Positions 45,124-64,000 of a stretch of 64,000 nt of DNA are shown piece by piece (the first letter of the stretch is position 1; every line of letters begins with the position of its first letter). The notes under the pieces were generated by a model. That model saw only the letters and a program-made list of their open reading frames with translations, did no database searches and was not told where the DNA came from. The translations under genes and the position numbers were made by a program. Origin of the DNA: an uncultured euryarchaeote (GTDB taxonomy: Archaea > Thermoplasmatota > Poseidoniia > Poseidoniales > Thalassarchaeaceae); NCBI GenBank assembly GCA_937911265.1, contig CALDRG010000064.1, forward strand, positions 8,350-72,349. Direction: 5' to 3'.

Positions 45124-48100
45124 TCAGCGCCTCCTCGTCCTGATAGGTCGGATGTATCCGGACTCCTTGTTTCTTCGCTCTTGGACAGTCAGGTACTTCG
45201 GTTGTGGAGGTGGCTTGTGCTGGTCCATACCAGGCAGGCCTCCTTCGACTTCAACTTCAGTGACGTCGTAGGTCTCGAGCATCTCTCCGGCATCCAACTC
45301 ATCCTCGTCTTTCTCTCGCATAATCAACCACCCAAGTACGAGGACGGCCGCAACCAAGGCTAGCAGCCCCGCGCTCTCCCTGTTAGGAACTAGGTCACTC
45401 CATGTCAGGTCGGCCAACGACTTCGGCTTGTCATCTTCCTGCACCGAGAGGACGGTGATTACGTACTCCTCAGAGGAGCAGACGCCCACGCCGTCGCACA
45501 CCTGCATCAGGATTCTAATTTCGCCAGGCTGGTTCCAAGTCTGATTACCCCACAACCAGTCGTTTCGAGTGTCGCCGTCGAGGTCGGTGTCTTGCAGCGC
45601 GTTGAGGTCCCATTTCACTGTCAGTGGACCTGTTAGGGGCCGGTCACGGTCATTGGCCGGATTGCCGTCCCCGTCACTGTCGTCAGACTGGTCCAGATCT
45701 ATCCACGCCTCTATGCCGTCGTCTAGGTCCGCATCTTTGGCGCTGGAGTTCAGCAGCACGATGTCGCCCATCGCGACGTAGTCGGCAGAGATTGGATCAT
45801 CGGTGAGAATCACAGGAGCCCTAGAGACGTGAACGGTCAGAGTGGTCGTGTTTGTCTCACCACCCTCAAAACCGTCAACCACCGTCAGGGTCACGACATA
45901 GGTGCCGGGAATCTCGTAGGCGTGCCACACTACCGGTCCGCTGACCGGCGAACTGGCGTCGCCGAAGTCCCAGATCCACGAGACTATGCCGTTCCACTCC
46001 GATGAATCGGAATCCGTTGATGTCCGGCCCACAAACAGTGGGTCAGCATCGTAACTGTCAGAACCATCGAACCTGATTGGGTCGCCGGGAGCCACGAATG
46101 CGCCCCCTCCAGCAGTATGGGGGACCTGCCAGACGACACCGTCCTCGGTCTGAGGGATTTCGCTCATCACAGACCCGTTGACGCTCGGGCAACTGAATTC
46201 AAGTCCTGGGACAGGGAGTGGGTTGGCTATCCTAATCGAGTATGACTTGGTGGCCGAGGAGAGCCCCCTGTCGTCGATTATGGTGAGGCTGATGGTGTAC
46301 AGTCCGGGCTCGAGGAAGGTGTGGCTCACTGAGGAGACGTTGTACACAGGGTCATCGAAGTCTGAGATTTCCCACTTAGTCTGCAGCAGTGCCGTGTCAC
46401 CATCTGGGTCGAACGACTCGCTAACGAATGTGTAGGTCGTATCCACATCTCCATCCTGCGGTCTCGCGAAAACTGCGACTGGTCTCTGATTAAGCACTTG
46501 TACCTGAAGCAGGGCCACGGAGGTGTTACCATCATCATCGGTGACTTCGAGAGTGACGTTTTTCATTCCCGGCTCAAGCCATCCAGCGCTGGGATTCTGC
46601 AGGATGGACTCGGTCGCGGAAAAGTCGGAAGTCAGTGCCATCCCAGAGCCGTCCAGATTGACCCCCTCCTCGAAGAACCAGCTATACTCGACAATCATCC
46701 CATCTGAGTCCTCAAAGACTGTCGGCATGGTCAGTGGAGTCAACGTGTATGTCTGCAGTGGTTCGTCAAAGATCTGTTTCGGTAAACGATTCAGGACCTT
46801 GATGTAAATGGATTGCTCGACGATGTGAATACCGTCATCGACTGTCAAAATCAGAGTGTAGATAATTCCGTCAGCGCTGCCGTCCACCCATGAGTGCCCA
46901 GCCTCGCCCACTCCTTGGCCTCCTTCGTTCTGCCCGTCGCCCCAGTCCCAGGTGAATACCAACTCATCTAGAGGGACGTTGTCTGAGGTCCCTCTGGCTG
47001 AGAATTGCACTCTCTGATCAGTGAGGAGCACCAGTTCGTCGGTGATGATGACTCCATCCACAGAGATCTCGGGGATTGGGTCGGAGATGTCGCTCACCGA
47101 GATGTTCCACGATTGAGAATCCGAGTAGTATCCTCCTTGGTCCTGTACCACTAGGACAATCTGGTAGTCTCCGGCATTGAGGTACGAGTGGGTCGGATTC
47201 TTCAATCCGGACGAGTTGTTGTCTCCGAGGTCCCAGATGTATCCTACAGGAGTGTCGTTATGGCTGAATGTACCATTCAACTGACCGAAGCCCCACGAGT
47301 CGTACCCCGAACCGAACACGGTCACGGGTAGCCATGTCTGAGTGACTGGCGTGGACATCGAACCGGATGCAACAGGCTCCATGTTAGCCAGAGCCATGGG
47401 CAGTGAGAACGCTTGGTCCACAATCTCCCCTGTAACGTCGCGGATGCGGATGCCGTAGGTCCAGTCTCCCGATGAAGGGGGAGTGAACCAGACGCTTCTC
47501 GGAGACGGAACACTATTGCCGGCGGTGATGTCGAACACCACCGAGTCAGACACGCTGTTGTTGACATAGGCCTCGATGGTCACTTCAAGAATTTCGAAGA
47601 ATGCGTTGGACTCCACATCGAGATCGATGCGAACGCTGTCGTCCAACCCGTCCTCGTCCCTGTCGAAGGAGGTAATCGTGTCTATCGAGACTTCCGCGGG
47701 GTCGGTAATCAGACCAGCATGTACAGTGAGAGAGGCTGTTGGGTACGATCCAGTGGTGATGCCGCAGGACACATAGTTGTAGTCGCAGTCAGTGACCATG
47801 GATTCGTACCATGTGAGCAGCCAGACCTCGTCAGTGGTGTTTCCAAATCCGTGCACTAGCCCGGTTCCGGCCCCTGTTCCGGAGTCTATCCGCAGGCTAC
47901 TCATCGACCAAGTCCCCGTGTCTGCGTCGCGAGCCATTATGGCGCCTTCAAAGCCGAATTGAGTTGGTTGCACCATCATATTGAGCGGAGCGCCAGAGCC
48001 CTGAGCGAACTTGTACGCTCTCATGCCCCAGCCCTCTATATCTTGACTGGAGCTGTTCCAATCGTTGACCCACTGATCGTTGTATCCACTCATCTGGGCC

Positions 48101-49239
48101 TTGCAGATATAGGCGGCAATGCATCCTGAGGTGAGATCGAGGTTGGTAAATCCGAAGGCCCCTTGGGCGCTGTCGAGGGACACTGCCGCACTGAAGTTAG
48201 CAAAGATCTCACTCATCGTCGTCCCAATAGAGGTCGCACCTGTCTCTGGATTTTGAGCCAGATTCTCAATAGCTACTCCGCCGGTAGCCGTATCGGCGAC
48301 CAGTCTTTGGATTGCGGCTCCACCACCGAGCTTGTCGGCTAGGTACATCAGGAACATGAAACCGGCGCCATAGTCGGCTATTCTGCCGTTCCACCACCGC
48401 ACGCTGAGGCTGCTGTCCTGCGACCATTCATTGGCGTGTCCTGTCAGCGTGCTGGTGACTCCGAAGGCTAGGTACGCTGCCATGTCCGCCGCTCCCTCAT
48501 CGATCCACAGGTACTCGTACGGATCCCTCGCGTTATGCAGCAGATGCTCGAACTCATGAGCAAGGATAGTGTTCCTCGAACTCATGTCATCGACGTCGAC
48601 GAACACTGATTCCCTAACCGACGAGATACCGGGTGAGAAGTATCCGCCGGTCCCACCTGATCCGTCGATGGCAATCAGGACAATCTCGATTTGGCAGTTG
48701 TTGTCGACATCGGGCGGACTGCCGAAATAGGTCGTGTCCGTGGGGTAAATCGTCGATTCCCAGGTTGAGGCAATATCATTGAGCGTGGTAGACGAGATAA
48801 TCTGGCCGTTCTCAACCAGAATAGCAGAATTGGCAGATACCTTCTGCGCCGTGACAGAGACGCTGCCACTGGCCGTGGAGACGTTGCCAGTATCGCCTTG
48901 ACTCCATGCATTCTCGCAAGAACGTACTGTGGATCTCGAGTTCAGGTAGCCCGGAGAGAATGGGAGCACCAGCCCAGGATAACCAGCTTCCCTCCATTCG
49001 ATCTTCAGGTGACCGGTAGCCGAGAATATCGGTTCGAATTCATCTGTGAACAGGTACCGCTTGCCCTCAATAGAGGGGTCGAACTCCGAGAGGTCGCCCG
49101 ACATGACCTCAGTCATCGATTCAGTGGATTGCGGCTCTGCGAGAGTCAAAGGAGAAAGACTGGCGAACAGCATCGTCAGGACCAGCATGACAGATGCTCT
49201 GCGGGACGTTGGTGCATTGTGGGGGGGCATGTTCAACAC
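45124..49239 (-). CDS. Giant membrane-anchored extracellular zinc metalloprotease (HEFEH, MA clan, M6/InhA-like) with multiple PKD-like domains
   Basis: Signal peptide; HEFEHLLHN...IDEGAAD gluzincin-like motif; at least 3 PKD signatures (WDWGDGQ, WDLGDNNSS...GDYQIVLVVQD, WDFGDASS...GTYVVTLTVVD); C-terminal TM plus basic tail. Confidence 0.6.
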   Translation of the reverse strand: MLNMPPHNAPTSRRASVMLVLTMLFASLSPLTLAEPQSTESMTEVMSGDLSEFDPSIEGKRYLFTDEFEPIFSATGHLKIEWREAGYPGLVLPFSPGYLNSRSTVRSCENAWSQGDTGNVSTASGSVSVTAQKVSANSAILVENGQIISSTTLNDIASTWESTIYPTDTTYFGSPPDVDNNCQIEIVLIAIDGSGGTGGYFSPGISSVRESVFVDVDDMSSRNTILAHEFEHLLHNARDPYEYLWIDEGAADMAAYLAFGVTSTLTGHANEWSQDSSLSVRWWNGRIADYGAGFMFLMYLADKLGGGAAIQRLVADTATGGVAIENLAQNPETGATSIGTTMSEIFANFSAAVSLDSAQGAFGFTNLDLTSGCIAAYICKAQMSGYNDQWVNDWNSSSQDIEGWGMRAYKFAQGSGAPLNMMVQPTQFGFEGAIMARDADTGTWSMSSLRIDSGTGAGTGLVHGFGNTTDEVWLLTWYESMVTDCDYNYVSCGITTGSYPTASLTVHAGLITDPAEVSIDTITSFDRDEDGLDDSVRIDLDVESNAFFEILEVTIEAYVNNSVSDSVVFDITAGNSVPSPRSVWFTPPSSGDWTYGIRIRDVTGEIVDQAFSLPMALANMEPVASGSMSTPVTQTWLPVTVFGSGYDSWGFGQLNGTFSHNDTPVGYIWDLGDNNSSGLKNPTHSYLNAGDYQIVLVVQDQGGYYSDSQSWNISVSDISDPIPEISVDGVIITDELVLLTDQRVQFSARGTSDNVPLDELVFTWDWGDGQNEGGQGVGEAGHSWVDGSADGIIYTLILTVDDGIHIVEQSIYIKVLNRLPKQIFDEPLQTYTLTPLTMPTVFEDSDGMIVEYSWFFEEGVNLDGSGMALTSDFSATESILQNPSAGWLEPGMKNVTLEVTDDDGNTSVALLQVQVLNQRPVAVFARPQDGDVDTTYTFVSESFDPDGDTALLQTKWEISDFDDPVYNVSSVSHTFLEPGLYTISLTIIDDRGLSSATKSYSIRIANPLPVPGLEFSCPSVNGSVMSEIPQTEDGVVWQVPHTAGGGAFVAPGDPIRFDGSDSYDADPLFVGRTSTDSDSSEWNGIVSWIWDFGDASSPVSGPVVWHAYEIPGTYVVTLTVVDGFEGGETNTTTLTVHVSRAPVILTDDPISADYVAMGDIVLLNSSAKDADLDDGIEAWIDLDQSDDSDGDGNPANDRDRPLTGPLTVKWDLNALQDTDLDGDTRNDWLWGNQTWNQPGEIRILMQVCDGVGVCSSEEYVITVLSVQEDDKPKSLADLTWSDLVPNRESAGLLALVAAVLVLGWLIMREKDEDELDAGEMLETYDVTEVEVEGGLPGMDQHKPPPQPKYLTVQERRNKESGYIRPIRTRRR

Positions 49240-57540: not shown

Positions 57541-57617
57541 GTTCCTACACAGGCCCCTTTTGAATGTCTGCTTTATTTTTAGGTCACCCTAAAATCAGAT
57601 ACCCCATCCAGCCAATC

Positions 57618-58115
57618 ATGACAGAGGACGAAGACACCCCTACTCCAGTCTCCGACACCATCGAAGAGGCCTATCGCGCACAGATTGGAGCGGCAATGGA
57701 GAAGGAGGCTCAGAGGAGAGTCACAGAGTCTCACGACCCGGAGGAGATTGCCCGTCTGGAAACTCTCTCTGTAGTCGACCTCTTCGAGACAGACGACAGT
57801 GACCTTGTCCCAGCGCTGATGGCACGGCTCGGTCCCGTCAGGGCGGCCTTGGATGGACATGGAGGGGAACTGGTCGTGGCGCGCGCGTCCATAGAGGTAC
57901 TGAATAGCGGCAGTAGAGTGCTTTCGCTAATCCTCGACTTAGACGGGGCCTGCGTGTCTTGCGGGGCCGCACCTGGTACCCTGAAGGGGATTCAGGACGA
58001 CTTACTGATGGACTCTGAGATTATCGCCGTGCGTTTCACCTCGGCGATGTTGGAGTGGTTTGACGAATTGCAACGCGACTTCGTGCTCAAGCACGGTGGC
58101 GTAGTTTTCGTTTAG
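57618..58115 (+). CDS. NifU/Nfu-like Fe-S scaffold domain protein
   Basis: LDLDGACVSCGAAPGTLKGI CxxC motif of the Nfu C-terminal domain; divergent to the suf operon. Confidence 0.65.
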   Translation: MTEDEDTPTPVSDTIEEAYRAQIGAAMEKEAQRRVTESHDPEEIARLETLSVVDLFETDDSDLVPALMARLGPVRAALDGHGGELVVARASIEVLNSGSRVLSLILDLDGACVSCGAAPGTLKGIQDDLLMDSEIIAVRFTSAMLEWFDELQRDFVLKHGGVVFV

Positions 58116-58758: not shown

Positions 58759-61700
58759 TCAGAGGGCGATGTTCTCTCCGCATACAGGGCACTTAGCGGC
58801 CTGGATATCGAGTGGAGCTTCGAACCTGCTGTCGCACTCAGGGCAAATGATTGGCTTGTTCAACTGTAAATCGGGAGGGCGGGATGCCTCCTCGGGAATT
58901 TTGACATCTGGCTCTGGAGTAGGAATCGGTATAGGTGGAAGTTCAAGGACGTCAACTATCTGACTCCGATTCTGTCGGCGTCCCCGACGTCCCTCGGCAC
59001 CTTCGTTGACCTCTACCAACTCGACCAACTGGACATCATCTTCCTCGCTCGTCTTCACAGCGATGTCTGTGTCATCGACAACGTCTACCACATCTTCTTC
59101 GAGCAGCACGGTGCCCGCCGCCTGGAAATTTCTTCGTCCCCTCATCCACCTGATGCCCCTAGCGGATAGAGTGATCAGGATGACGGTGCACAGAAGTAGA
59201 ATGGTGATGGCGAATCCACCTAGGAGGATGTTGAAGTTCTGCTTATCTAGGCCAAGAGCGTGCCTCAGTTCATCGATCAGGGATCCACCATCGCCGTTCG
59301 GGTCGTTGTCATCTACGACAGCCCTGATTAGCCAACCACTGGCAGAGGTATGGATGAAAACAGTCTCACTGCTGGCTGGAGAACGATCCATGAGGTAGAG
59401 GTTCCCGAGGTTGAGGCGGTTGGATAATCCAAGCCACCCTTCTTCAGCATCTATGATGCCAAACCTAACCTGCGGTCCGGTTGGTCCGACTACATCGAAG
59501 AACACCTGCACGCCTCTGTCAACCTCTTGCATCACGATGGAACTCAGTCCCCTTGAGGGGTAGGTGCGAGTCAGGTTGTCGATTGCTTCAAACGACGAAT
59601 CAGCCACTATGGCAATCATCACCGACTCGTGACCATCGCCTTCTCTCCACGCTGCCGTAATCCGCTCTTCCCCATTGATGATTTGGACTTTCATGACCGC
59701 GAGGGAAGCCTCGTCGCCAACCGTCTTCTTGAAGGTCCACGAAGACTGTTCAATGAGACCGTGTGCGTACCACAGGCCATATCTCTCTATCCCCGTTGAG
59801 TCACTTCTTGTGGACTGATACAGGAGGTGAGCTCCATCGTCCTCCCCGAACTCAATATCCAACGAACTTGCGGCCCCCGGAATCAGGTCTAACTCACCAA
59901 TGATGTTCGGAGTAAGCGTCCAGTCTGACGATTTGGTCGGGTTGTCCGCGTGCAGAAGGAAAACGCTGGTTTGATCGCCGAATGTACCTCCGGTGAACAT
60001 GTCTCTGTGATAGCCTGAGACTAGAACCTCCTCGTCATCGACGTCTATGTCAATGCCCCAGTACTTGCCATCCGAAAGCAAGAGGGGGGCCATCAGATCC
60101 TGTATCGGCGACATCTGGCAGGTGGCGTCTATGGCGGAGTAGCTCAGGGTCTGGAGGAAGTAACCAGAGGAATCGAGAAACCTCCGAGTCCAGACGATGT
60201 GCGCCCAACCGTCCTCGGTGCTCCAGGTTGCTATGTCGCCAGCCCACATCTCATCCAGTACGTTAGTGCAGGCTGTAGTACCCTTGTTGGAGTTCAACCT
60301 GTATAGCGACAGCATTCCTCCGTTGTTGGTGATGATTATACCCTCATCGTCGAGGTCGATGACCTTGATCGGTACCTCTCCTGCATCGAAGTTCATCGCG
60401 CGGGCACCTGATAGGGTGGACTCGTCCACCAGCACTGTCGTCTCGACCTGATTGTTGCTCCAATCTAGGTCGGCTAATCCGGAGCCACTCAGAGTGATTC
60501 TGACATCGAGAGGGCCGGACTGATTGGCCCGATGAGCGAAGGATAGCTGCGACGCACCCTGGCCGATAACTAGGGAGATTGCAGTAGATGACACCAGCTC
60601 CCAGCCCAGATTGTTGCGAATCTCTAGTGTGGCTTCGACGCTGGCGGCATCACTGGAGCCGAGATTATCGACTCTGGCTGTGATGAGGAACTGCTCGAGG
60701 GGCCGCGGTATCGCTGGCTCTGTCCTAACTGCCCCCTCTCGGAAGGCCAAGTCTATGCCTTGTGGTCTCTGGATGACTGGGAAGGTGATTGTCTGTCCAT
60801 TATCTTCCTCATTCAGCTCCTCAATCGAATCGGAAGGATCCAGGGAAACCATCACCACTTTGTCGCCGACGGTGGTCGGATTCCAGTAGAGTACCACTTC
60901 GATGATGTCGCCGCTGTCGATGCTGGGCAACACCATCTCGTCCTTGCGCGAACCGTCCTCATACAGTGCGATTGCGAGATTCGATGCCGCCAAATCACCA
61001 TCGTTACGAATCTCAGTTCGGATTTCTAGGAATGTGTTGACATATGTTTGAGTGAGATGAATCCCGTACTCTTCCACTGAGAGGCCGGTCCTGAACATCA
61101 GATTAGGGGCCGGTGGGTCGTTATCCACCTCGACGGTCCGACGTATCTCTTCGGAGTAGATTCCGTCTCCGCTAACCATCCTAGCGGAGAGGCGGTAAAA
61201 TCCGTCATCCACATCCTCGGTGCTCCAAGTCACAGACCAATCACCGCTACCGCTACCGCTTCCTCCGAAGGTCTGAGCAGTTCCCCAGGGGTCAGTGCCT
61301 AGCCTCCACTGCGCAGTTCCTCCGTTCACCGAATCCCAAGTACCGAACACGTTGACGTTCCCGGAGACAGGGCTCTGTCCGCTAGGGCCTCCCATAGTGA
61401 CGGCGACCAAGCCAACCTCATGCTTCTGCTCGATTACATCGCTCCACTGTCCAAATTCGTTCTTTGCCTGAGCCTCGATTATCACCTCAAGTATGTTGAT
61501 CTCATCCTCGGTGAACTCGGGTAAAGTGAATGGAGTTGTCCAGTTGGAGGTTCCTTGGGCTGCGTGCCAGTCAAGCAACACCACCTCTCTCTTCGGCTCG
61601 CCTTCGGGCCTATGTGTGTATGAGATTCTGACTGCTATCTCGTCGATACTGCCATTCGTCTCCGCATCCTCGTCTATGTGGCCTCTTGCACTGTAGGTTT

Positions 61701-63528
61701 CGCCCTCCACCAACCACGAGTCCACCTCAGGATTCTCCATGACTACCCAGTCCCCCGATCCAGGCGGAGGCGGGTCAGTATTGTTGTCCCCGGGATCCAC
61801 ATCTCCTCCGAGCATCGCCTCGAGAATCATGTTGCCATCGACGATGCCAAAGCCGTACTGTTCGTTCCACTTTTCCGTGATACTGGGTTCTGAGGCCTGC
61901 CCACGTCTTTCGGAATTGTTCTGTAAAAGGTCCTTGATCTCCTGCGGGCTGAGGTCGTCGTTTATCTGCAGCATGACTGCGATGAAACCGGCGACTGCGG
62001 GACAGGACATGCTTGTGCCGGACAGCTGGGTGTAACTGTCTTCGGCTAGAGGTTTAGGAGCCCCTGGGAGGGTGCTGCTAGAGGCAGCATTCTGAGCGGA
62101 CATTATGTTAGATCCAGGAGCTACCACTGTGGGCTTCAACTCCTCCCACTCGTTATTGTCTCCATCGTCCTCTCTAGGGCCAGAGTTGGAGTATGAGGCG
62201 ATCATATCATCCCCTCTCTCAATAGTATTCTCATCGTCTATGGCTCCGACGGTGATGGCGCTGTCGGAAGCACCGACAGATGTTATCCTCCTCCTGCCGT
62301 CGTTGCCAATGGCCGCGACCGGAACCACGCCGGCATCCGCTGCCTCGTCAACCGCTCTAGCTTCGGCGCTTGTACCGTTGTCACCGGGATCATCTCCTTG
62401 GGGGTCAGAGGCGGATCCGAAGGACATGGACATCACGTCGATACCCTCACTCGATTCGTTGTTCCCCCAGTCGTGATCGGCGTTGTCAATGACCCACTGT
62501 ATGCCTCTGAGCGTTGCTGCTGAGTTTGTTGCCCCGGCATCACTCATGACCTTGACGTCGACAAGATAGGCGCCAGGGGCATAGCCCTGATTTATGCGTC
62601 GATCGTCACCAGTTCCGAGGGCTATTCCAGCCACGTGAGTTCCGTGCCCGTCGGCATCGTCTGGGTCGATGCTGCCGTCGTCGCAATCCTGAGAGTTCCA
62701 TGAGGTCGCATCGCATCCTCCCAACCACTTTGGGTCGGCAAGTTCATCTGGCTCTTTTTCGTTGTCGTTGTTGTCGTCCGAGAAATCGTCCAGTGAGAAG
62801 TGCTCGTTGTCCACTCCGGTATCTAGGATGGCAATTACGACTCCAGAACCGTCGTAGCCAAAGTCCCGCATCGTCTCGTCGAAGACCTCGGAGTCCCTGA
62901 CCTTCGAGCCTCGAGATGCCTTGTCAAGCAGAGGTACTATCACGGTCTGTTCCTCAATCATCACCACTCCGTCAAGCAACCAGATTTCGATTAGCGAGCC
63001 CACAGGGACGTGGTCGATTACTATGGAGTCGAGGATTCGGAGGGGGTCGAACCACGAACCTTCTTCCTTCCAACCGTGGTCGAGCAGCACCGTCCTGATG
63101 GCATCGATGTCACTCTGTCCGGGGTGCCAAGAATAATCGACGACGATGGCGACAGTCGGTAGACCGTCCGATCCTGTGATTGAGGTCGTCGAAACCGATG
63201 TCCTTTCTCCGGCGATGATTCTCTGTAGTCTGTCGTCCATCCCGTCGGAGTCTAGGTCGTACCAGTACCCGAACCACCATCCGGGATCCTCGACCGGCCA
63301 ACCAGAATCGACAGGACGGATGCCTGGAGAACGGTCCTTCTCAGGGCACTTTTCGTCCCCGCACATCAGTGGCGAAGGTAGTCTTGGATTCGATATAACT
63401 GCAACCTCGGTACCCTCATCTGTGTCTGCTGGGACGTGTACTAAGGCGCTGGCTCCTATCGAGAAGTCCATCACGAGGAACAGTGCGACCACTATCAGAG
63501 GTAGTCTCGGATTCCTACTATGACTCAT
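58759..63528 (-). CDS. Giant membrane-anchored subtilisin-like serine protease (S8) with C-terminal TM and cytoplasmic zinc ribbon
   Basis: Signal peptide; catalytic triad contexts AILDTGVD, HGTHVAGIA, GTSMSCPAVAG; acidic Ca-site-like insert; about 1000 aa of beta-rich domains; TM ILLGGFAITILLLCTVILITL; tail CPECDSRF...CPVCGE. Confidence 0.85.
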   Translation of the reverse strand: MSHSRNPRLPLIVVALFLVMDFSIGASALVHVPADTDEGTEVAVISNPRLPSPLMCGDEKCPEKDRSPGIRPVDSGWPVEDPGWWFGYWYDLDSDGMDDRLQRIIAGERTSVSTTSITGSDGLPTVAIVVDYSWHPGQSDIDAIRTVLLDHGWKEEGSWFDPLRILDSIVIDHVPVGSLIEIWLLDGVVMIEEQTVIVPLLDKASRGSKVRDSEVFDETMRDFGYDGSGVVIAILDTGVDNEHFSLDDFSDDNNDNEKEPDELADPKWLGGCDATSWNSQDCDDGSIDPDDADGHGTHVAGIALGTGDDRRINQGYAPGAYLVDVKVMSDAGATNSAATLRGIQWVIDNADHDWGNNESSEGIDVMSMSFGSASDPQGDDPGDNGTSAEARAVDEAADAGVVPVAAIGNDGRRRITSVGASDSAITVGAIDDENTIERGDDMIASYSNSGPREDDGDNNEWEELKPTVVAPGSNIMSAQNAASSSTLPGAPKPLAEDSYTQLSGTSMSCPAVAGFIAVMLQINDDLSPQEIKDLLQNNSERRGQASEPSITEKWNEQYGFGIVDGNMILEAMLGGDVDPGDNNTDPPPPGSGDWVVMENPEVDSWLVEGETYSARGHIDEDAETNGSIDEIAVRISYTHRPEGEPKREVVLLDWHAAQGTSNWTTPFTLPEFTEDEINILEVIIEAQAKNEFGQWSDVIEQKHEVGLVAVTMGGPSGQSPVSGNVNVFGTWDSVNGGTAQWRLGTDPWGTAQTFGGSGSGSGDWSVTWSTEDVDDGFYRLSARMVSGDGIYSEEIRRTVEVDNDPPAPNLMFRTGLSVEEYGIHLTQTYVNTFLEIRTEIRNDGDLAASNLAIALYEDGSRKDEMVLPSIDSGDIIEVVLYWNPTTVGDKVVMVSLDPSDSIEELNEEDNGQTITFPVIQRPQGIDLAFREGAVRTEPAIPRPLEQFLITARVDNLGSSDAASVEATLEIRNNLGWELVSSTAISLVIGQGASQLSFAHRANQSGPLDVRITLSGSGLADLDWSNNQVETTVLVDESTLSGARAMNFDAGEVPIKVIDLDDEGIIITNNGGMLSLYRLNSNKGTTACTNVLDEMWAGDIATWSTEDGWAHIVWTRRFLDSSGYFLQTLSYSAIDATCQMSPIQDLMAPLLLSDGKYWGIDIDVDDEEVLVSGYHRDMFTGGTFGDQTSVFLLHADNPTKSSDWTLTPNIIGELDLIPGAASSLDIEFGEDDGAHLLYQSTRSDSTGIERYGLWYAHGLIEQSSWTFKKTVGDEASLAVMKVQIINGEERITAAWREGDGHESVMIAIVADSSFEAIDNLTRTYPSRGLSSIVMQEVDRGVQVFFDVVGPTGPQVRFGIIDAEEGWLGLSNRLNLGNLYLMDRSPASSETVFIHTSASGWLIRAVVDDNDPNGDGGSLIDELRHALGLDKQNFNILLGGFAITILLLCTVILITLSARGIRWMRGRRNFQAAGTVLLEEDVVDVVDDTDIAVKTSEEDDVQLVELVEVNEGAEGRRGRRQNRSQIVDVLELPPIPIPTPEPDVKIPEEASRPPDLQLNKPIICPECDSRFEAPLDIQAAKCPVCGENIAL

Positions 63529-63598
63529 GGCTCTCTTAGAGAGCCAAACTCAGATGAGGTATAATCCCAACCTGTCATGGCTCGTCTGTGACATCGGT

Positions 63599-64000
63599 TC
63601 AAGGCCACTTGACATGGCCGCCGGAAATGACACAGCGAATACGGCAGTTCTCACCTCTTATCTCAGTAATCATCTCACCGTCACAGACCGGGCAGATGGT
63701 ATGCTCCGAGAGCTCTTCCAGCCAAGCTCTCCTAGTTTCCAGTTCGTCGCCCTCCTCGCGCAACCTCCTCAGTATCATAGCAGCCCTTCCGTCAAGCGGT
63801 TTGTCAGCTGCGAACCATGGGTCGTCATCGAGGCTCCCCATACGTCCTATGGCCTGCGTCCGAAGGGCTCGGGCACGCTCCGAATGGGTCGCTGAACTCT
63901 CCGTCGAATCAAGTGAGCTGGGTGCGCCCCGAGCAATTGGCCTAGCAAGCAGGTAAGCTAGGAAGAATCCTCCTACGTGTGCCATGTGAGCGACATTCGA
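63599..64000 (-). CDS. Rhomboid-family intramembrane serine protease, 3' portion (5' end outside window), with C-terminal zinc-ribbon tail
   Basis: The ORF continues to the window edge; translated SNVAHMAHVGGFFLAYLL matches the rhomboid catalytic His helix (AHxxGxxxG); cytoplasmic tail CPVCDGE...CRIRC. Confidence 0.55.
   Translation of the reverse strand, partial: SNVAHMAHVGGFFLAYLLARPIARGAPSSLDSTESSATHSERARALRTQAIGRMGSLDDDPWFAADKPLDGRAAMILRRLREEGDELETRRAWLEELSEHTICPVCDGEMITEIRGENCRIRCVISGGHVKWP

What the first reader, a model, noticed from the sequence alone, without database searches (positions are those of the whole stretch)
58759..64000. Rhomboid protease directly upstream of a 1589-aa single-pass S8 subtilase; both carry cytoplasmic C-terminal zinc ribbons
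The partial minus-strand gene at the window edge has the rhomboid catalytic-His helix (AHMAHVGGFF) and ends in a Cys4 ribbon (CPVCDGE...CRIRC). Seventy nucleotides downstream on the same strand starts a giant subtilase with signal peptide, intact D/H/S triad and a single C-terminal TM helix, followed by a short cytoplasmic tail that carries its own Cys4 ribbon (CPECDSRF...CPVCGENIAL). Type I single-pass proteins are the canonical rhomboid substrates. The arrangement suggests a dedicated shedding or maturation module in which the rhomboid releases the surface-anchored protease, with the paired zinc ribbons as a possible recognition or regulatory interface. I am not aware of such a rhomboid-subtilase-zinc-ribbon pairing being described.
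Basis: partly seen in the sequence, partly recalled or inferred. Interest (0 to 1): 0.7.

Follow-up and report, generated by a model that had tools for sequence, protein, structure and literature searches.

The report
Archaeal rhomboid paired with anchored subtilase
In globally abundant marine Group II archaea, a membrane-embedded rhomboid protease with a zinc-binding tail always sits next to a giant membrane-anchored protein-degrading enzyme, which makes that enzyme the best available candidate for a natural substrate of an archaeal rhomboid.

Summary
The partial minus-strand ORF at the window edge is the 3' end of an intact 344-aa rhomboid, recovered in full from identical contigs. It has HxxxN, GASGA Ser154 and His219. 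Seventy nt downstream starts a 1589-aa S8 subtilase with a signal peptide, a D236/H298/S506 triad, one C-terminal TM helix and a 122-aa cytoplasmic tail ending in an invariant C4 ribbon.

The organism is a Thalassarchaeaceae (MGIIb) archaeon. The pair is adjacent in all 79 testable MGIIb species loci and in five other Poseidoniales lineages, MGIIa included. Within MGIIb the whole ~15 kb block is syntenic, so that adjacency alone proves little. Stronger evidence is that flanks changed on both sides in other lineages without splitting the pair. Also, remote rhomboids (22-28% identity) with a homologous helix-plus-zinc tail lie beside a different secreted hydrolase, a PLD-type nuclease, that also ends in a TM anchor plus basic cluster.

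The best reading is a dedicated rhomboid-substrate pair, analogous to rhombosortase/GlyGly-CTERM. The "paired zinc ribbons" idea is not supported, because the rhomboid tail predates the pairing and the PLD partners have no ribbon. I rate it a new variant of a known kind, interest about 0.6. No cleavage has been shown.

The parts
63599..64000 (-). 3' part of the rhomboid gene (residues 212-344 plus stop). The full gene is 344 aa and runs beyond the window edge.
   Evidence: Pfam Rhomboid 94.3 bits on the full-length protein from identical contigs. The AF2 model matches GlpG with TM-score 0.64-0.66 normalised to the target.
63944..63991 (-). Rhomboid TM6 with the catalytic His219 (AHMAHVGGFFLAYLLA).
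   Evidence: H219 and G222 are invariant over rhomboids down to 22% identity; H216 and G221 are invariant within MGIIb.
63710..63763 (-). Conserved cytoplasmic helix of the rhomboid tail (LRREGDELETRRAWLEEL, residues 291-308).
   Evidence: Nearly invariant in 13 MGIIb sequences. W304 is invariant down to 22% identity. The AF2 model shows helices at 283-294 and 298-310, with block-mean pLDDT 82-91 over residues 281-344.
63602..63694 (-). Zinc-knuckle/ribbon of the rhomboid tail. The conserved ligands are C314, C317, C334 and H340, and the tail ends in an invariant WP.
   Evidence: A beta-hairpin at 320-334 appears in the AF2 model. The region is homologous to the tails of remote rhomboids.
63559..63564 (-). 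TATA-box-like TTATAC, preceded by GGTTGGGA, in the rhomboid-S8 spacer.
   Evidence: TTA(T/A)AC lies exactly 19 nt upstream of the palindrome in 78/78 MGIIb loci. The sequence is shown. Its role as a promoter is inferred.
63529..63545 (-). Perfect palindrome/hairpin GGCTCTC-TAA-GAGAGCC ending exactly at the S8 ATG.
   Evidence: The pattern occurs once per locus and only at this position: in 78 of the 80 MGIIb species loci plus the six copies of this contig. The stem is a perfect 7 bp with a variable loop. Symmetric variants GGCTCTG/CAGAGCC (6 loci) and GGCTCTA/TAGAGCC (1 locus) occur.
58759..63528 (-). Giant S8 subtilase gene (1589 aa), the candidate rhomboid substrate.
   Evidence: Orthologues lie directly downstream of the rhomboid in all testable Poseidoniales loci.
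63430..63528 (-). N-terminal signal peptide (residues 1-33).
   Evidence: Hydrophobic segment 6-34. Its identity as a signal peptide is inferred from the sequence.
61846..62850 (-). S8 catalytic domain (residues 227-561; D236, H298, S506).
60793..61059 (-). CARDB domain (residues 824-912).
59209..59256 (-). Juxtamembrane signature LGLDKQNFNILLGGFA (residues 1425-1440), the proposed recognition/cleavage region.
   Evidence: D1428 and G1438 are invariant in 70/70 orthologues. L, G, L and F are kept in 67-68/70, and A1440 is always A, S or G. Among the C-terminal regions compared, this and the acidic motif are the best conserved (mean identity 0.65 and 0.63, against 0.48 for the flanking ectodomain).
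59143..59232 (-). Single C-terminal TM helix (about residues 1433-1462).
59131..59166 (-). Basic cluster at the cytoplasmic end of the TM (SARGIRWMRGRR).
   Evidence: R+27 is R or K in 66/70 and W+28 is kept in 64/70. This fits the positive-inside rule for an N-out/C-in topology (inference).
59080..59106 (-). Conserved acidic cytoplasmic motif LLEEDVVDV (residues 1475-1483).
   Evidence: The E, D, V, V, D positions are kept in 58-69 of 70 orthologues.
58762..58845 (-). C-terminal C4 zinc ribbon of the subtilase (C1562, C1565, C1580, C1583).
   Evidence: All four Cys are kept in 70/70 orthologues, MGIIa included. Pfam ribbon models give only sub-threshold hits.

Best explanation
This is a dedicated intramembrane-protease/substrate gene pair.

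The protease is a Thermoplasmatota-specific rhomboid subfamily. It has a 1+6 TM core with an intact Ser154/His219 dyad and a cytoplasmic C-terminal module made of a conserved helix and a CCCH/C4 zinc knuckle. I propose that it processes the C-terminal membrane anchor of the large secreted hydrolase encoded beside it. In Poseidoniales (Marine Group II) that partner is the 1589-aa S8 subtilase.

Proposed steps:
1. The subtilase is exported by its signal peptide.
2. It is held at the cell surface by its single C-terminal TM helix in N-out/C-in orientation.
3. The rhomboid recognises the invariant juxtamembrane/outer-TM signature (LGLD-x3-F-x-IL-x2-G-[VFI]-[AS]).
4. It cuts near the invariant Gly1438, separating the ectodomain from the TM plus cytoplasmic tail.
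5. The result is either shedding or hand-over to another form of attachment.

The conserved cytoplasmic elements of the substrate (basic cluster, LEEDVVD motif, C4 ribbon) and the helix-zinc module of the enzyme most likely gate or time this event.

Shown: sequences, catalytic residues, conservation and gene neighbourhoods. Inferred: topology (hydropathy only), cleavage, cleavage site, zinc binding, and any contact between the tails.
For: 1. The rhomboid is intact and has the rhomboid fold: 94.3 bits; GlpG, TM-score 0.64-0.66 normalised to the target.

2. The subtilase has only two hydrophobic segments, the signal peptide and one C-terminal TM followed by Arg/Lys. That predicts type I topology, the canonical rhomboid substrate class (established knowledge).

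3. Adjacency holds in 79/79 testable MGIIb species loci at 44-96% subtilase identity. It also holds in five further lineages (rhomboid 39-46% identical, subtilase 34-37% identical), MGIIa/Poseidoniaceae among them.

4. Rearrangements occurred on both sides of the pair but never inside it. GlmS and a KaiC-like gene were inserted between S8 and Maf. The CcmC-like and ABC genes are missing upstream in L090.

5. The best-conserved parts of the subtilase C-terminal region are the juxtamembrane/outer-TM signature, where rhomboids cut, and the cytoplasmic acidic motif. D1428 and G1438 are kept in 70/70.

6. There is an independent second pairing. Remote rhomboids (22-28% identity) keep a homologous tail (hhalign 97.9%, E 3.7e-13). 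They lie directly after, often overlapping, a PLD/NucT-like exoprotein. That protein has a signal peptide and a conserved C-terminus ...YKNTIYIxxIFTLTFALIARDWRKRKWT*.

7. A strict automated test found a C-anchored ORF ending at the rhomboid start in 7/12 tail-type loci, against 2/46 loci scored as tail-less. One of those two (L110) is really a tail-type locus whose rhomboid reading frame breaks off before the end of the ribbon.

8. There is precedent. Rhombosortase and a single GlyGly-CTERM target are usually consecutive genes (PMC3237569). Known rhombosortase-associated targets include a serine protease (VesB, PMC6219818) and a nuclease (ExeM, PMC6085458).
Against: - There is no experimental or proteomic evidence of cleavage.
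- Within MGIIb the whole ~15 kb (M23, PGI, NMD3, CcmC-like, ABC, Rho, S8, Maf, SufCBD) is syntenic, so most of the 79 loci add no specific support.
- The main PLD-linked clade also has a local synteny block, PLD-Rho-presenilin/SPP. Its loci are therefore not fully independent. Only L092 and L093 show the PLD association outside that block.
- Three other tail-bearing rhomboid lineages have no obvious C-anchored neighbour.
- The S8 gene seems to have its own TATA-like element and a palindrome at its start, so co-transcription is not established.
- A 122-aa conserved tail with a ribbon is unexpected for a segment that is merely cut off and discarded.
- The rhomboid scores below the rhombosortase cut-off (51.5 against 84 bits).
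- No known CTERM sorting model matches either partner.
Confidence: 0.55

Rival explanations
1. The adjacency is inherited synteny without a direct enzyme-substrate relation. The rhomboid would be a general housekeeping or quality-control protease of the cell. The subtilase would be a permanently membrane-anchored exoprotease whose tail serves another purpose, such as localisation or binding an intracellular partner.
For: The entire ~15 kb neighbourhood is collinear in all 80 MGIIb species loci, and much of it persists in MGIIa. S8 has its own TATA-like element and start-site palindrome. Some tail-bearing rhomboids have no anchored neighbour. Known bacterial rhomboids such as GlpG and YqgP act in membrane-protein quality control (recalled knowledge; quality-control roles are summarised in PMC11985538).
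Against: Flanks changed on both sides in other lineages but the pair was never separated. A homologous rhomboid subfamily is coupled, often with overlapping stop and start, to a different hydrolase that again ends in a TM plus basic cluster. The background rate for generic rhomboids is about 1 in 45. The juxtamembrane signature is one of the two best-conserved parts of the subtilase C-terminal region.
Confidence: 0.25
2. The two proteins form a stable regulatory complex rather than acting as a sheddase and its substrate. The rhomboid would bind the subtilase TM helix and tail and control its trafficking, activation or turnover, in the way iRhom2 controls the single-pass protease ADAM17. The two cytoplasmic zinc modules would form the interface, which is the first reader's 'paired ribbons' idea.
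For: Both tails are predicted to be cytoplasmic. Both are strongly conserved across Poseidoniales. The rhomboid tail is modelled with block-mean pLDDT 82-91 over its last ~60 residues. iRhom-ADAM17 complexes appeared among the structural neighbours of the model, showing that a rhomboid-fold protein can partner a type I protease.
Against: The rhomboid keeps every catalytic residue, unlike iRhoms. The rhomboid tail is ancestral and occurs with PLD partners that have no ribbon and only an 8-10 residue cytoplasmic stub. The two ribbons are not specifically related. No complex prediction could be run.
Confidence: 0.12
3. The system performs regulated intramembrane proteolysis for signalling. Rhomboid cleavage would free the subtilase's cytoplasmic tail (acidic motif, RRxRR, Pro-rich linker, C4 ribbon). 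The freed tail would act as a cytoplasmic signal, for instance at the palindrome on the subtilase's own promoter, coupling extracellular proteolysis to gene expression.
For: The tail is long (122 aa). It has near-invariant motifs (LE(E/D)DVVD in 66-69/70; RRxRR), four invariant Cys, and a variable linker with mean identity 0.21. This pattern suggests functional modules rather than a spacer. A unique, perfectly conserved palindrome with symmetric variants abuts the S8 ATG downstream of a TATA-like box.
Against: This is purely inferential. Rhomboid cleavage near the outer leaflet leaves the tail attached to most of the TM helix, so a second release step would be needed. PLD partners of the related rhomboids have no tail at all. 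Nothing links the ribbon to nucleic-acid binding.
Confidence: 0.06

Closest known systems
Rhombosortase (RrtA, TIGR03902) with GlyGly-CTERM targets; Haft & Varghese 2011 (PMC3237569); VesB processing in Vibrio cholerae (PMC6219818)
   Same: A rhomboid-family protease is paired with secreted hydrolases that end in a signature motif, a TM helix and a basic cluster. When there is one target, enzyme and target are consecutive genes. Known rhombosortase-associated targets include a serine protease and a nuclease, mirroring the S8 and PLD/NucT-like partners here. Rhombosortase is the best NCBIfam hit of this rhomboid.
   Different: The score is below the family cut-off (51.5 against 84 bits). The host is an archaeon with a single membrane, not a Gram-negative bacterium with a T2SS. 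The rhomboid carries an extra N-terminal TM and a C-terminal helix-zinc module. The target signature (LGLD..F.IL..G) is not Gly/Ser-rich and does not match the GlyGly-CTERM model. The Poseidoniales target continues for 122 aa beyond the basic cluster and ends in a zinc ribbon.
iRhom2-ADAM17 sheddase complex (PDB 9o58, 9xy4)
   Same: A rhomboid-fold membrane protein partners a single-pass type I membrane protease. Cytoplasmic domains regulate the complex. These entries appeared among the structural neighbours of the model.
   Different: iRhoms are catalytically dead and eukaryotic. This rhomboid keeps the Ser/His dyad. There is no evidence here for a stable complex.
Haloarchaeal rhomboids (H. 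volcanii Rho1/Rho2, and forms with an N-terminal AN1 zinc finger; PMC4343526, PMC11985538)
   Same: These are archaeal rhomboids with a cytoplasmic zinc-binding accessory domain and cell-surface phenotypes.
   Different: Their zinc finger is N-terminal and of AN1 type, whereas here it is a C-terminal helix plus CCCH/C4 knuckle. Their natural substrates are still unknown (PMC11985538), and no conserved substrate gene pair has been reported for them.
Archaeosortase ArtA with PGF-CTERM; sortase with LPXTG; exosortase with PEP-CTERM
   Same: These are tripartite C-terminal sorting signals (motif, TM helix, basic cluster) on surface proteins, processed by a dedicated membrane protease.
   Different: The protease families are unrelated. 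There is no PGF, LPXTG or PEP motif here, and no NCBIfam CTERM model matches.
Providencia AarA-TatA and Bacillus YqgP-MgtE
   Same: These are prokaryotic rhomboids with defined natural substrates. YqgP has a cytosolic regulatory domain that senses divalent cations (recalled knowledge, not checked here).
   Different: Those substrates are not adjacent secreted hydrolases, and the accessory domain is N-terminal and unrelated.

Membership tests
Rhomboid protease (Pfam PF01694, MEROPS S54) | Profile match above the gathering threshold | tested here: met
   94.3 bits against a cut-off of 22.6 on the full-length protein from identical contigs. The 133 aa visible in the window give no hit on their own.
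Rhomboid protease (Pfam PF01694, MEROPS S54) | Catalytic GxSG serine in TM4 and histidine in TM6, plus HxxxN in TM2 | tested here: met
   GASGA (S154), AHMAHVGG (H219) and WIHVLSN (H100, N104) are present. They are invariant in alignments down to 22% identity. Only H219 lies inside the window.
Rhomboid protease (Pfam PF01694, MEROPS S54) | Six-TM GlpG-like fold | tested here: met
   The AF2 model has mean pLDDT 73.7. Foldseek matches to GlpG give probability 1.0 and TM-score 0.64-0.66 normalised to the target.
Rhomboid protease (Pfam PF01694, MEROPS S54) | Proteolytic activity on a TM substrate | not testable with these tools
   This needs a biochemical assay.
Rhombosortase (TIGR03902) | Score at or above the curated cut-off of 84 bits | tested here: not met
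   51.5 bits, E 1.1e-13. It is the best NCBIfam hit but below the cut-off.
Rhombosortase (TIGR03902) | Partner carries a GlyGly-CTERM domain (Gly/Ser-rich motif, TM helix, basic residues at the extreme C-terminus) | tested here: not met
   No CTERM model hit the S8 or PLD C-termini at E<=10. The S8 has an invariant Gly and a basic cluster but continues for 122 aa. 'GG' itself is not conserved (GG, IG, AG, SG or VG).
Subtilase (Pfam PF00082, MEROPS S8) | Profile match and an Asp/His/Ser triad in D-H-S order | tested here: met
   171.1 bits over residues 227-561. The triad is D236 (ILDTG), H298 (HGTH) and S506 (GTSMS).
Zinc ribbon (any Pfam/NCBIfam ribbon family) | Profile match above threshold | tested here: not met
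   All ribbon hits are sub-threshold (best 16-18 bits against cut-offs of 25-34).
Zinc ribbon (any Pfam/NCBIfam ribbon family) | Two conserved metal-ligand pairs on a beta-hairpin | tested here: met
   In the S8, C1562, C1565, C1580 and C1583 are kept in 70/70 orthologues. In the rhomboid, C314, C317 and C334 are invariant and H340 nearly so, replaced by Cys in one sequence. A hairpin at 320-334 appears in the model. Metal binding was not tested.
Archaeosortase/PGF-CTERM system | PGF motif before the C-terminal TM helix | tested here: not met
   There is no PGF in the S8 or PLD C-termini and no NCBIfam hit.

The most novel reading that the evidence does not exclude
The pair could be the core of an archaeal regulated-intramembrane-proteolysis circuit. 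In this reading the rhomboid's helix-zinc module and the subtilase's acidic/zinc-ribbon tail communicate in the cytoplasm. Cleavage releases the ectodomain and also generates a tail-derived signal that feeds back on expression, possibly through the unique palindrome at the subtilase start site. Surface proteolysis in Marine Group II archaea would then be a sensed and regulated process. In sediment Thermoplasmata, the related locus with a presenilin/SPP homologue next to the rhomboid would be a two-protease version: shedding followed by stub clearance.
Probability: 0.07. Interest if true: 0.9.

Novelty: new variant of a known kind. Interest (0 to 1): 0.6.

Why it matters
Natural substrates of prokaryotic rhomboids are very few. 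For archaea none is established: the 2025 Haloferax study still lists substrate identification as future work (PMC11985538). This finding offers two concrete candidate pairs that can be cloned. One is rhomboid plus S8 subtilase in Poseidoniales. The other is rhomboid plus PLD-type nuclease in sediment Thermoplasmata. Both come with a defined candidate recognition segment and a previously undescribed cytoplasmic helix-zinc module on the enzyme.

There is also an ecological side. Marine Group II archaea are among the most abundant planktonic archaea. Their extracellular S8 peptidases are invoked for protein degradation in the ocean (PMC6864105). Whether the main subtilase is kept on the cell or released affects how its activity enters models of dissolved against cell-bound exoenzyme activity.

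Tried and rejected
1. A search with the subtilase tail alone (200 aa) returned only 18 short fragments of the same orthologues and not the full-length proteins. One fragment is labelled RpoP by JGI. The search was evidently incomplete, so it cannot show that the tail is unique to this family.

2. Profile comparison of the two ribbons was inconclusive and is not evidence of common origin (probability 66.6%, 28 columns).

3. I looked for a rhombosortase-type 'GG' at the TM start. Only the second Gly is invariant.

4. A fit to the published rhomboid P4/P1/P2' preference (recalled from Strisovsky 2009, not re-read) is only partial. With P1 = G1438, P4 is Leu but P2' is Ala/Ser. I therefore do not claim a cleavage site.

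5. No known CTERM sorting-signal model matches either partner.

6. MGIIb adjacency counts were rejected as stand-alone evidence once the whole block proved syntenic.

7. The PLD-clade loci were first taken as independent. They turned out to share a PLD-Rho-SPP block, so their weight was reduced.

8. Three other remote tail-bearing rhomboids (P0175, P0261, P0145) showed no anchored neighbour.

9. The strict automated anchor test undercounts. It misses L104, L105, L112, L113 and L119, which are evident by eye and by tblastn.

10. I could not decide whether the start-site palindrome is an RNA hairpin or a DNA operator. The TATA spacing suggests the transcription start falls inside it (inference).

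11. No multimer prediction was possible with the available tools.


Full report
**Observation**

The minus strand at the right end of the window carries three genes in series:
- a partial ORF (63599-64000);
- after a 70-nt spacer, a 1589-aa ORF (58759-63528);
- a Maf-like gene.

The large ORF is an S8 subtilase. Pfam gives Peptidase_S8 at 171 bits (residues 227-561) and CARDB at 63.7 bits. The triad is D236, H298 and S506. There are only two hydrophobic segments, an N-terminal signal peptide (6-34) and one TM helix (1431-1461). After the TM come a basic cluster and a 122-aa tail with 27 acidic residues and 13 Pro. The tail ends in CPEC-x14-CPVC.

The visible 133 aa of the upstream ORF have no Pfam hit on their own. 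A look-up of the exact subtilase sequence found 17 contigs. These include a 192-kb ENA contig and NCBI GCA_002495735.1, and they extend beyond the window. The full upstream gene encodes a 344-aa Pfam Rhomboid (94.3 bits) with WLHADWIHVLSN, GASGA (Ser154) and AHMAHVGG (His219). Hydropathy suggests a 1+6 TM arrangement. An AlphaFold model (mean pLDDT 73.7, block-mean 82-91 over the last ~60 residues) superposes on GlpG with TM-score 0.64-0.66 normalised to the target.

**Organism and conservation of each protein**

Homologues are annotated as Candidatus Thalassarchaeum, Thalassarchaeaceae or Poseidoniales, that is Marine Group II, clade IIb.

In 13 rhomboid orthologues (56-83% identity to the query) the C-terminal tail is among the best-conserved parts. 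It has an almost invariant EGDELETRRAWLEEL helix followed by CPxC...C...H..WP. When other Poseidoniales lineages are added, the conserved ligand set is C314, C317, C334 and H340.

In 70 subtilase orthologues, three from non-MGIIb Poseidoniales lineages among them, the following hold:
- all four ribbon Cys are invariant;
- the cytoplasmic motif LE(E/D)DVVD is kept in 66-69 sequences;
- the linker before the ribbon is variable (mean identity 0.21);
- the best-conserved regions are the juxtamembrane/outer-TM signature R-x2-LGLD-x3-F-x-IL-x2-G-[VFI]-[AS], with D1428 and G1438 in 70/70 (mean identity 0.65), and the acidic motif (0.63).

**Is the pairing more than synteny?**

A scan of one genome per GTDB species returned 80 loci, all Poseidoniales. 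The subtilase orthologue starts within about 70-200 nt downstream of the rhomboid in all 79 loci that have downstream sequence. However, the whole ~15 kb block is collinear in these loci. The block comprises M23 peptidase, PGI, NMD3, a CcmC-like gene, an ABC ATPase, the rhomboid, S8, Maf, a 183-aa ORF and SufCBD. Within MGIIb the adjacency therefore carries no specific information.

To go further, I searched 1.8 billion cluster representatives with a rhomboid profile. Full-length relatives that keep the tail fall into two tiers:
- Tier 1: five lineages at 39-46% identity. Of those with source names, P0125 is Poseidoniaceae (MGIIa) and P0128 is Poseidoniales.
- Tier 2: remote proteins at 22-28% identity that still show W-x9-CPxC-x~12-C-x1-3-[CH].

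All five tier-1 lineages have a 1400-1632-aa S8 gene directly after the rhomboid. Their subtilases are 34-37% identical to ours. Where the C-terminus is on the contig (L087, L088, L097/L098), it again shows TM, basic cluster, acidic region, Pro-rich linker and C-terminal C4 ribbon.

In these lineages the flanks differ. GlmS and a KaiC-like ATPase lie between S8 and Maf, and in L090 the CcmC-like and ABC genes are absent upstream. Rearrangements thus happened on both sides but never between the two genes.

**A second, different partner**

The remote tail-bearing rhomboids gave the most informative result. P0143 comes from a Thermoplasmata MAG from groundwater. It overlaps by 4 nt the end of a 1013-aa protein with CARDB, LTD and two PLDc_2 domains, NucT/DrmC-like. 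That protein ends ...NGSGLTATAIITSSIIVVLIDWRRRFG*, that is, a TM helix plus a basic cluster and nothing more.

A metagenome scan seeded with these remote rhomboids returned 22 loci whose rhomboid keeps the tail and 58 generic rhomboids.
- A homologue of the PLD protein ends at the rhomboid start (gap between about -10 and +60 nt) in L094, L100, L101, L103, L104, L106, L108, L110-L114, L116, L118 and L119. Fragments are present in L102 and L105. In L093 it lies two genes away.
- Its C-terminus is strongly conserved: (D)YKNTIYIxxIFTLTFALIARDWRKRKWT*.
- N-terminal signal peptides are present.
- A deliberately strict automated test found a C-anchored ORF ending at the rhomboid start in 7 of 12 testable tail-type loci. 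The figure was 2 of 46 for loci scored as tail-less, and one of those two is really tail-type.
- The Poseidoniales tails and the remote rhomboid tails are homologous (hhalign probability 97.9%, E 3.7e-13 over 45 columns).

Two caveats apply. Most PLD-linked loci also share a convergent presenilin/SPP-family protease directly after the rhomboid (PF06550, 240 bits). They therefore form a synteny block of their own, and only L092 and L093 show the PLD association outside it. In addition, three other remote tail-bearing rhomboids have no obvious anchored neighbour.

**Interpretation**

One rhomboid subfamily, defined by a homologous cytoplasmic helix-zinc module, is encoded next to a large secreted hydrolase in two separate groups of Thermoplasmatota. 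In each case the hydrolase ends in a conserved signature, a single TM helix and a basic cluster. The hydrolase differs between the groups (S8 protease or PLD-type nuclease), and so does the gene order.

This is the pattern that defined the dedicated rhombosortase/GlyGly-CTERM systems, where protease and single target are consecutive genes (PMC3237569). Rhombosortase-associated targets include a serine protease and a nuclease (PMC6219818, PMC6085458). I therefore take the subtilase to be the substrate of the rhomboid, cut in the conserved outer-TM segment near G1438 (confidence about 0.55). Whether the outcome is release, re-anchoring or turnover cannot be told from sequence.

The system is not a member of the rhombosortase family. 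The rhomboid scores 51.5 bits against a cut-off of 84. No CTERM model matches the partners. 'GG' is not conserved. The Poseidoniales substrate also carries a long conserved tail that rhombosortase targets lack.

**The zinc ribbons**

- the rhomboid module is older than the pairing with S8 and works alongside PLD partners that have only an 8-10 residue cytoplasmic stub;
- the two ribbons share only the generic CPxC...C pattern.

It is not excluded either. The Poseidoniales rhomboid tails differ from the remote ones in their last knuckle (C-x5-H-x2-WP against C-x1-3-[CH]), and the subtilase tail is clearly under selection. A regulatory contact, or a signalling role for the released tail, remains possible at low probability.

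**Known against new**

Already known:
- rhomboid-adjacent targets (rhombosortase);
- archaeal rhomboids with zinc fingers (N-terminal AN1 type; PMC4343526);
- extracellular S8 peptidases in every MGII genome (PMC6864105).

Apparently new:
- this rhomboid subfamily with a C-terminal helix-zinc module;
- its order-wide pairing with the giant anchored subtilase in Poseidoniales;
- the parallel pairing with a PLD-type exoprotein;
- the tail architecture of the subtilase.

No paper in the searchable library mentions rhomboids together with Poseidoniales. Archaeal rhomboid substrates were still unknown in 2025. I rate it a new variant of a known kind, with interest 0.6. The evidence is entirely comparative and no cleavage has been shown.

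**Side observation**

The 70-nt spacer is not neutral. In 78 of 78 MGIIb loci that match the element, a TTA(T/A)AC hexamer lies exactly 19 nt upstream of a perfect 7-bp palindrome, GGCTCTC-N3-GAGAGCC. The palindrome ends exactly at the subtilase ATG and occurs nowhere else in these loci. Symmetric double changes (GGCTCTG/CAGAGCC in 6 loci, GGCTCTA/TAGAGCC in 1) preserve it. Two other Poseidoniales lineages have different palindromes in the same position. The subtilase therefore probably has its own regulated promoter or a 5' stem-loop, so operon status with the rhomboid should not be assumed.

Noticed in passing
window 63529-63564 (minus strand), rhomboid-S8 spacer; same position in L007-L086: A TATA-like TTATAC lies exactly 19 nt upstream of a perfect 7-bp palindrome, GGCTCTC-N3-GAGAGCC, that ends at the S8 ATG. 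The arrangement is conserved in 78/78 MGIIb loci that match the element, is unique within each ~20-kb locus, and shows symmetric (compensatory) variants. L087 and L090 have different palindromes in the same place. I could not decide between a DNA operator and an RNA 5' stem-loop.
   Followed up: partly
L092:4963-8972; L116:4195-8921; L108:3617-7086 and about 15 further metagenome loci (L094, L100-L119): In sediment and groundwater Thermoplasmata, a PLD/NucT-like exoprotein is followed, often with overlapping stop and start, by a rhomboid with the same helix-zinc tail. The exoprotein has a signal peptide, LTD, CARDB and two PLDc_2 domains, and the C-terminal anchor ...IARDWRKRKWT*.
   Followed up: yes
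L108:7086-8033(-), and the equivalent position in 15 further loci among L094-L119: A presenilin/SPP-family intramembrane aspartyl protease (PF06550, 240 bits) lies convergent and immediately after the tail-bearing rhomboid in 16 loci. Two intramembrane proteases side by side could be a shedding-plus-stub-clearance pair, or simply synteny. No such gene is in the window.
   Followed up: partly
window 45124-49239 (-): A 1371-aa protein, annotated with PKD domains on the matching public contigs, has a signal peptide, one TM helix at residues 1287-1310 and a ~60-aa basic cytoplasmic tail without a zinc ribbon. It is another predicted type I surface protein that could be a further rhomboid client.
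   Followed up: no
L001:6496-8791 (outside the window, divergent from the rhomboid): An ABC ATPase (465 aa), a CcmC-like Cytochrom_C_asm protein and a 46-aa ORF are divergently transcribed about 105-130 nt from the rhomboid start. They are conserved in nearly all Poseidoniales loci but missing in L090.
   Followed up: no
window 57564-58115 (+): A conserved 183-aa ORF lies between Maf and SufC. It has no precomputed Pfam hit, but its C-terminal half contains LDGACVSCGAAPGTLKGIQ, which looks like a NifU/Nfu-type Fe-S scaffold motif (recalled resemblance). That would fit its position next to SufCBD.
   Followed up: no
P0339: A 110-aa fragment of the subtilase C-terminal tail is labelled 'DNA-directed RNA polymerase subunit RPC12/RpoP' by JGI. 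This is probably an annotation artefact caused by the zinc ribbon. The same word-index search missed all full-length subtilases.
   Followed up: no
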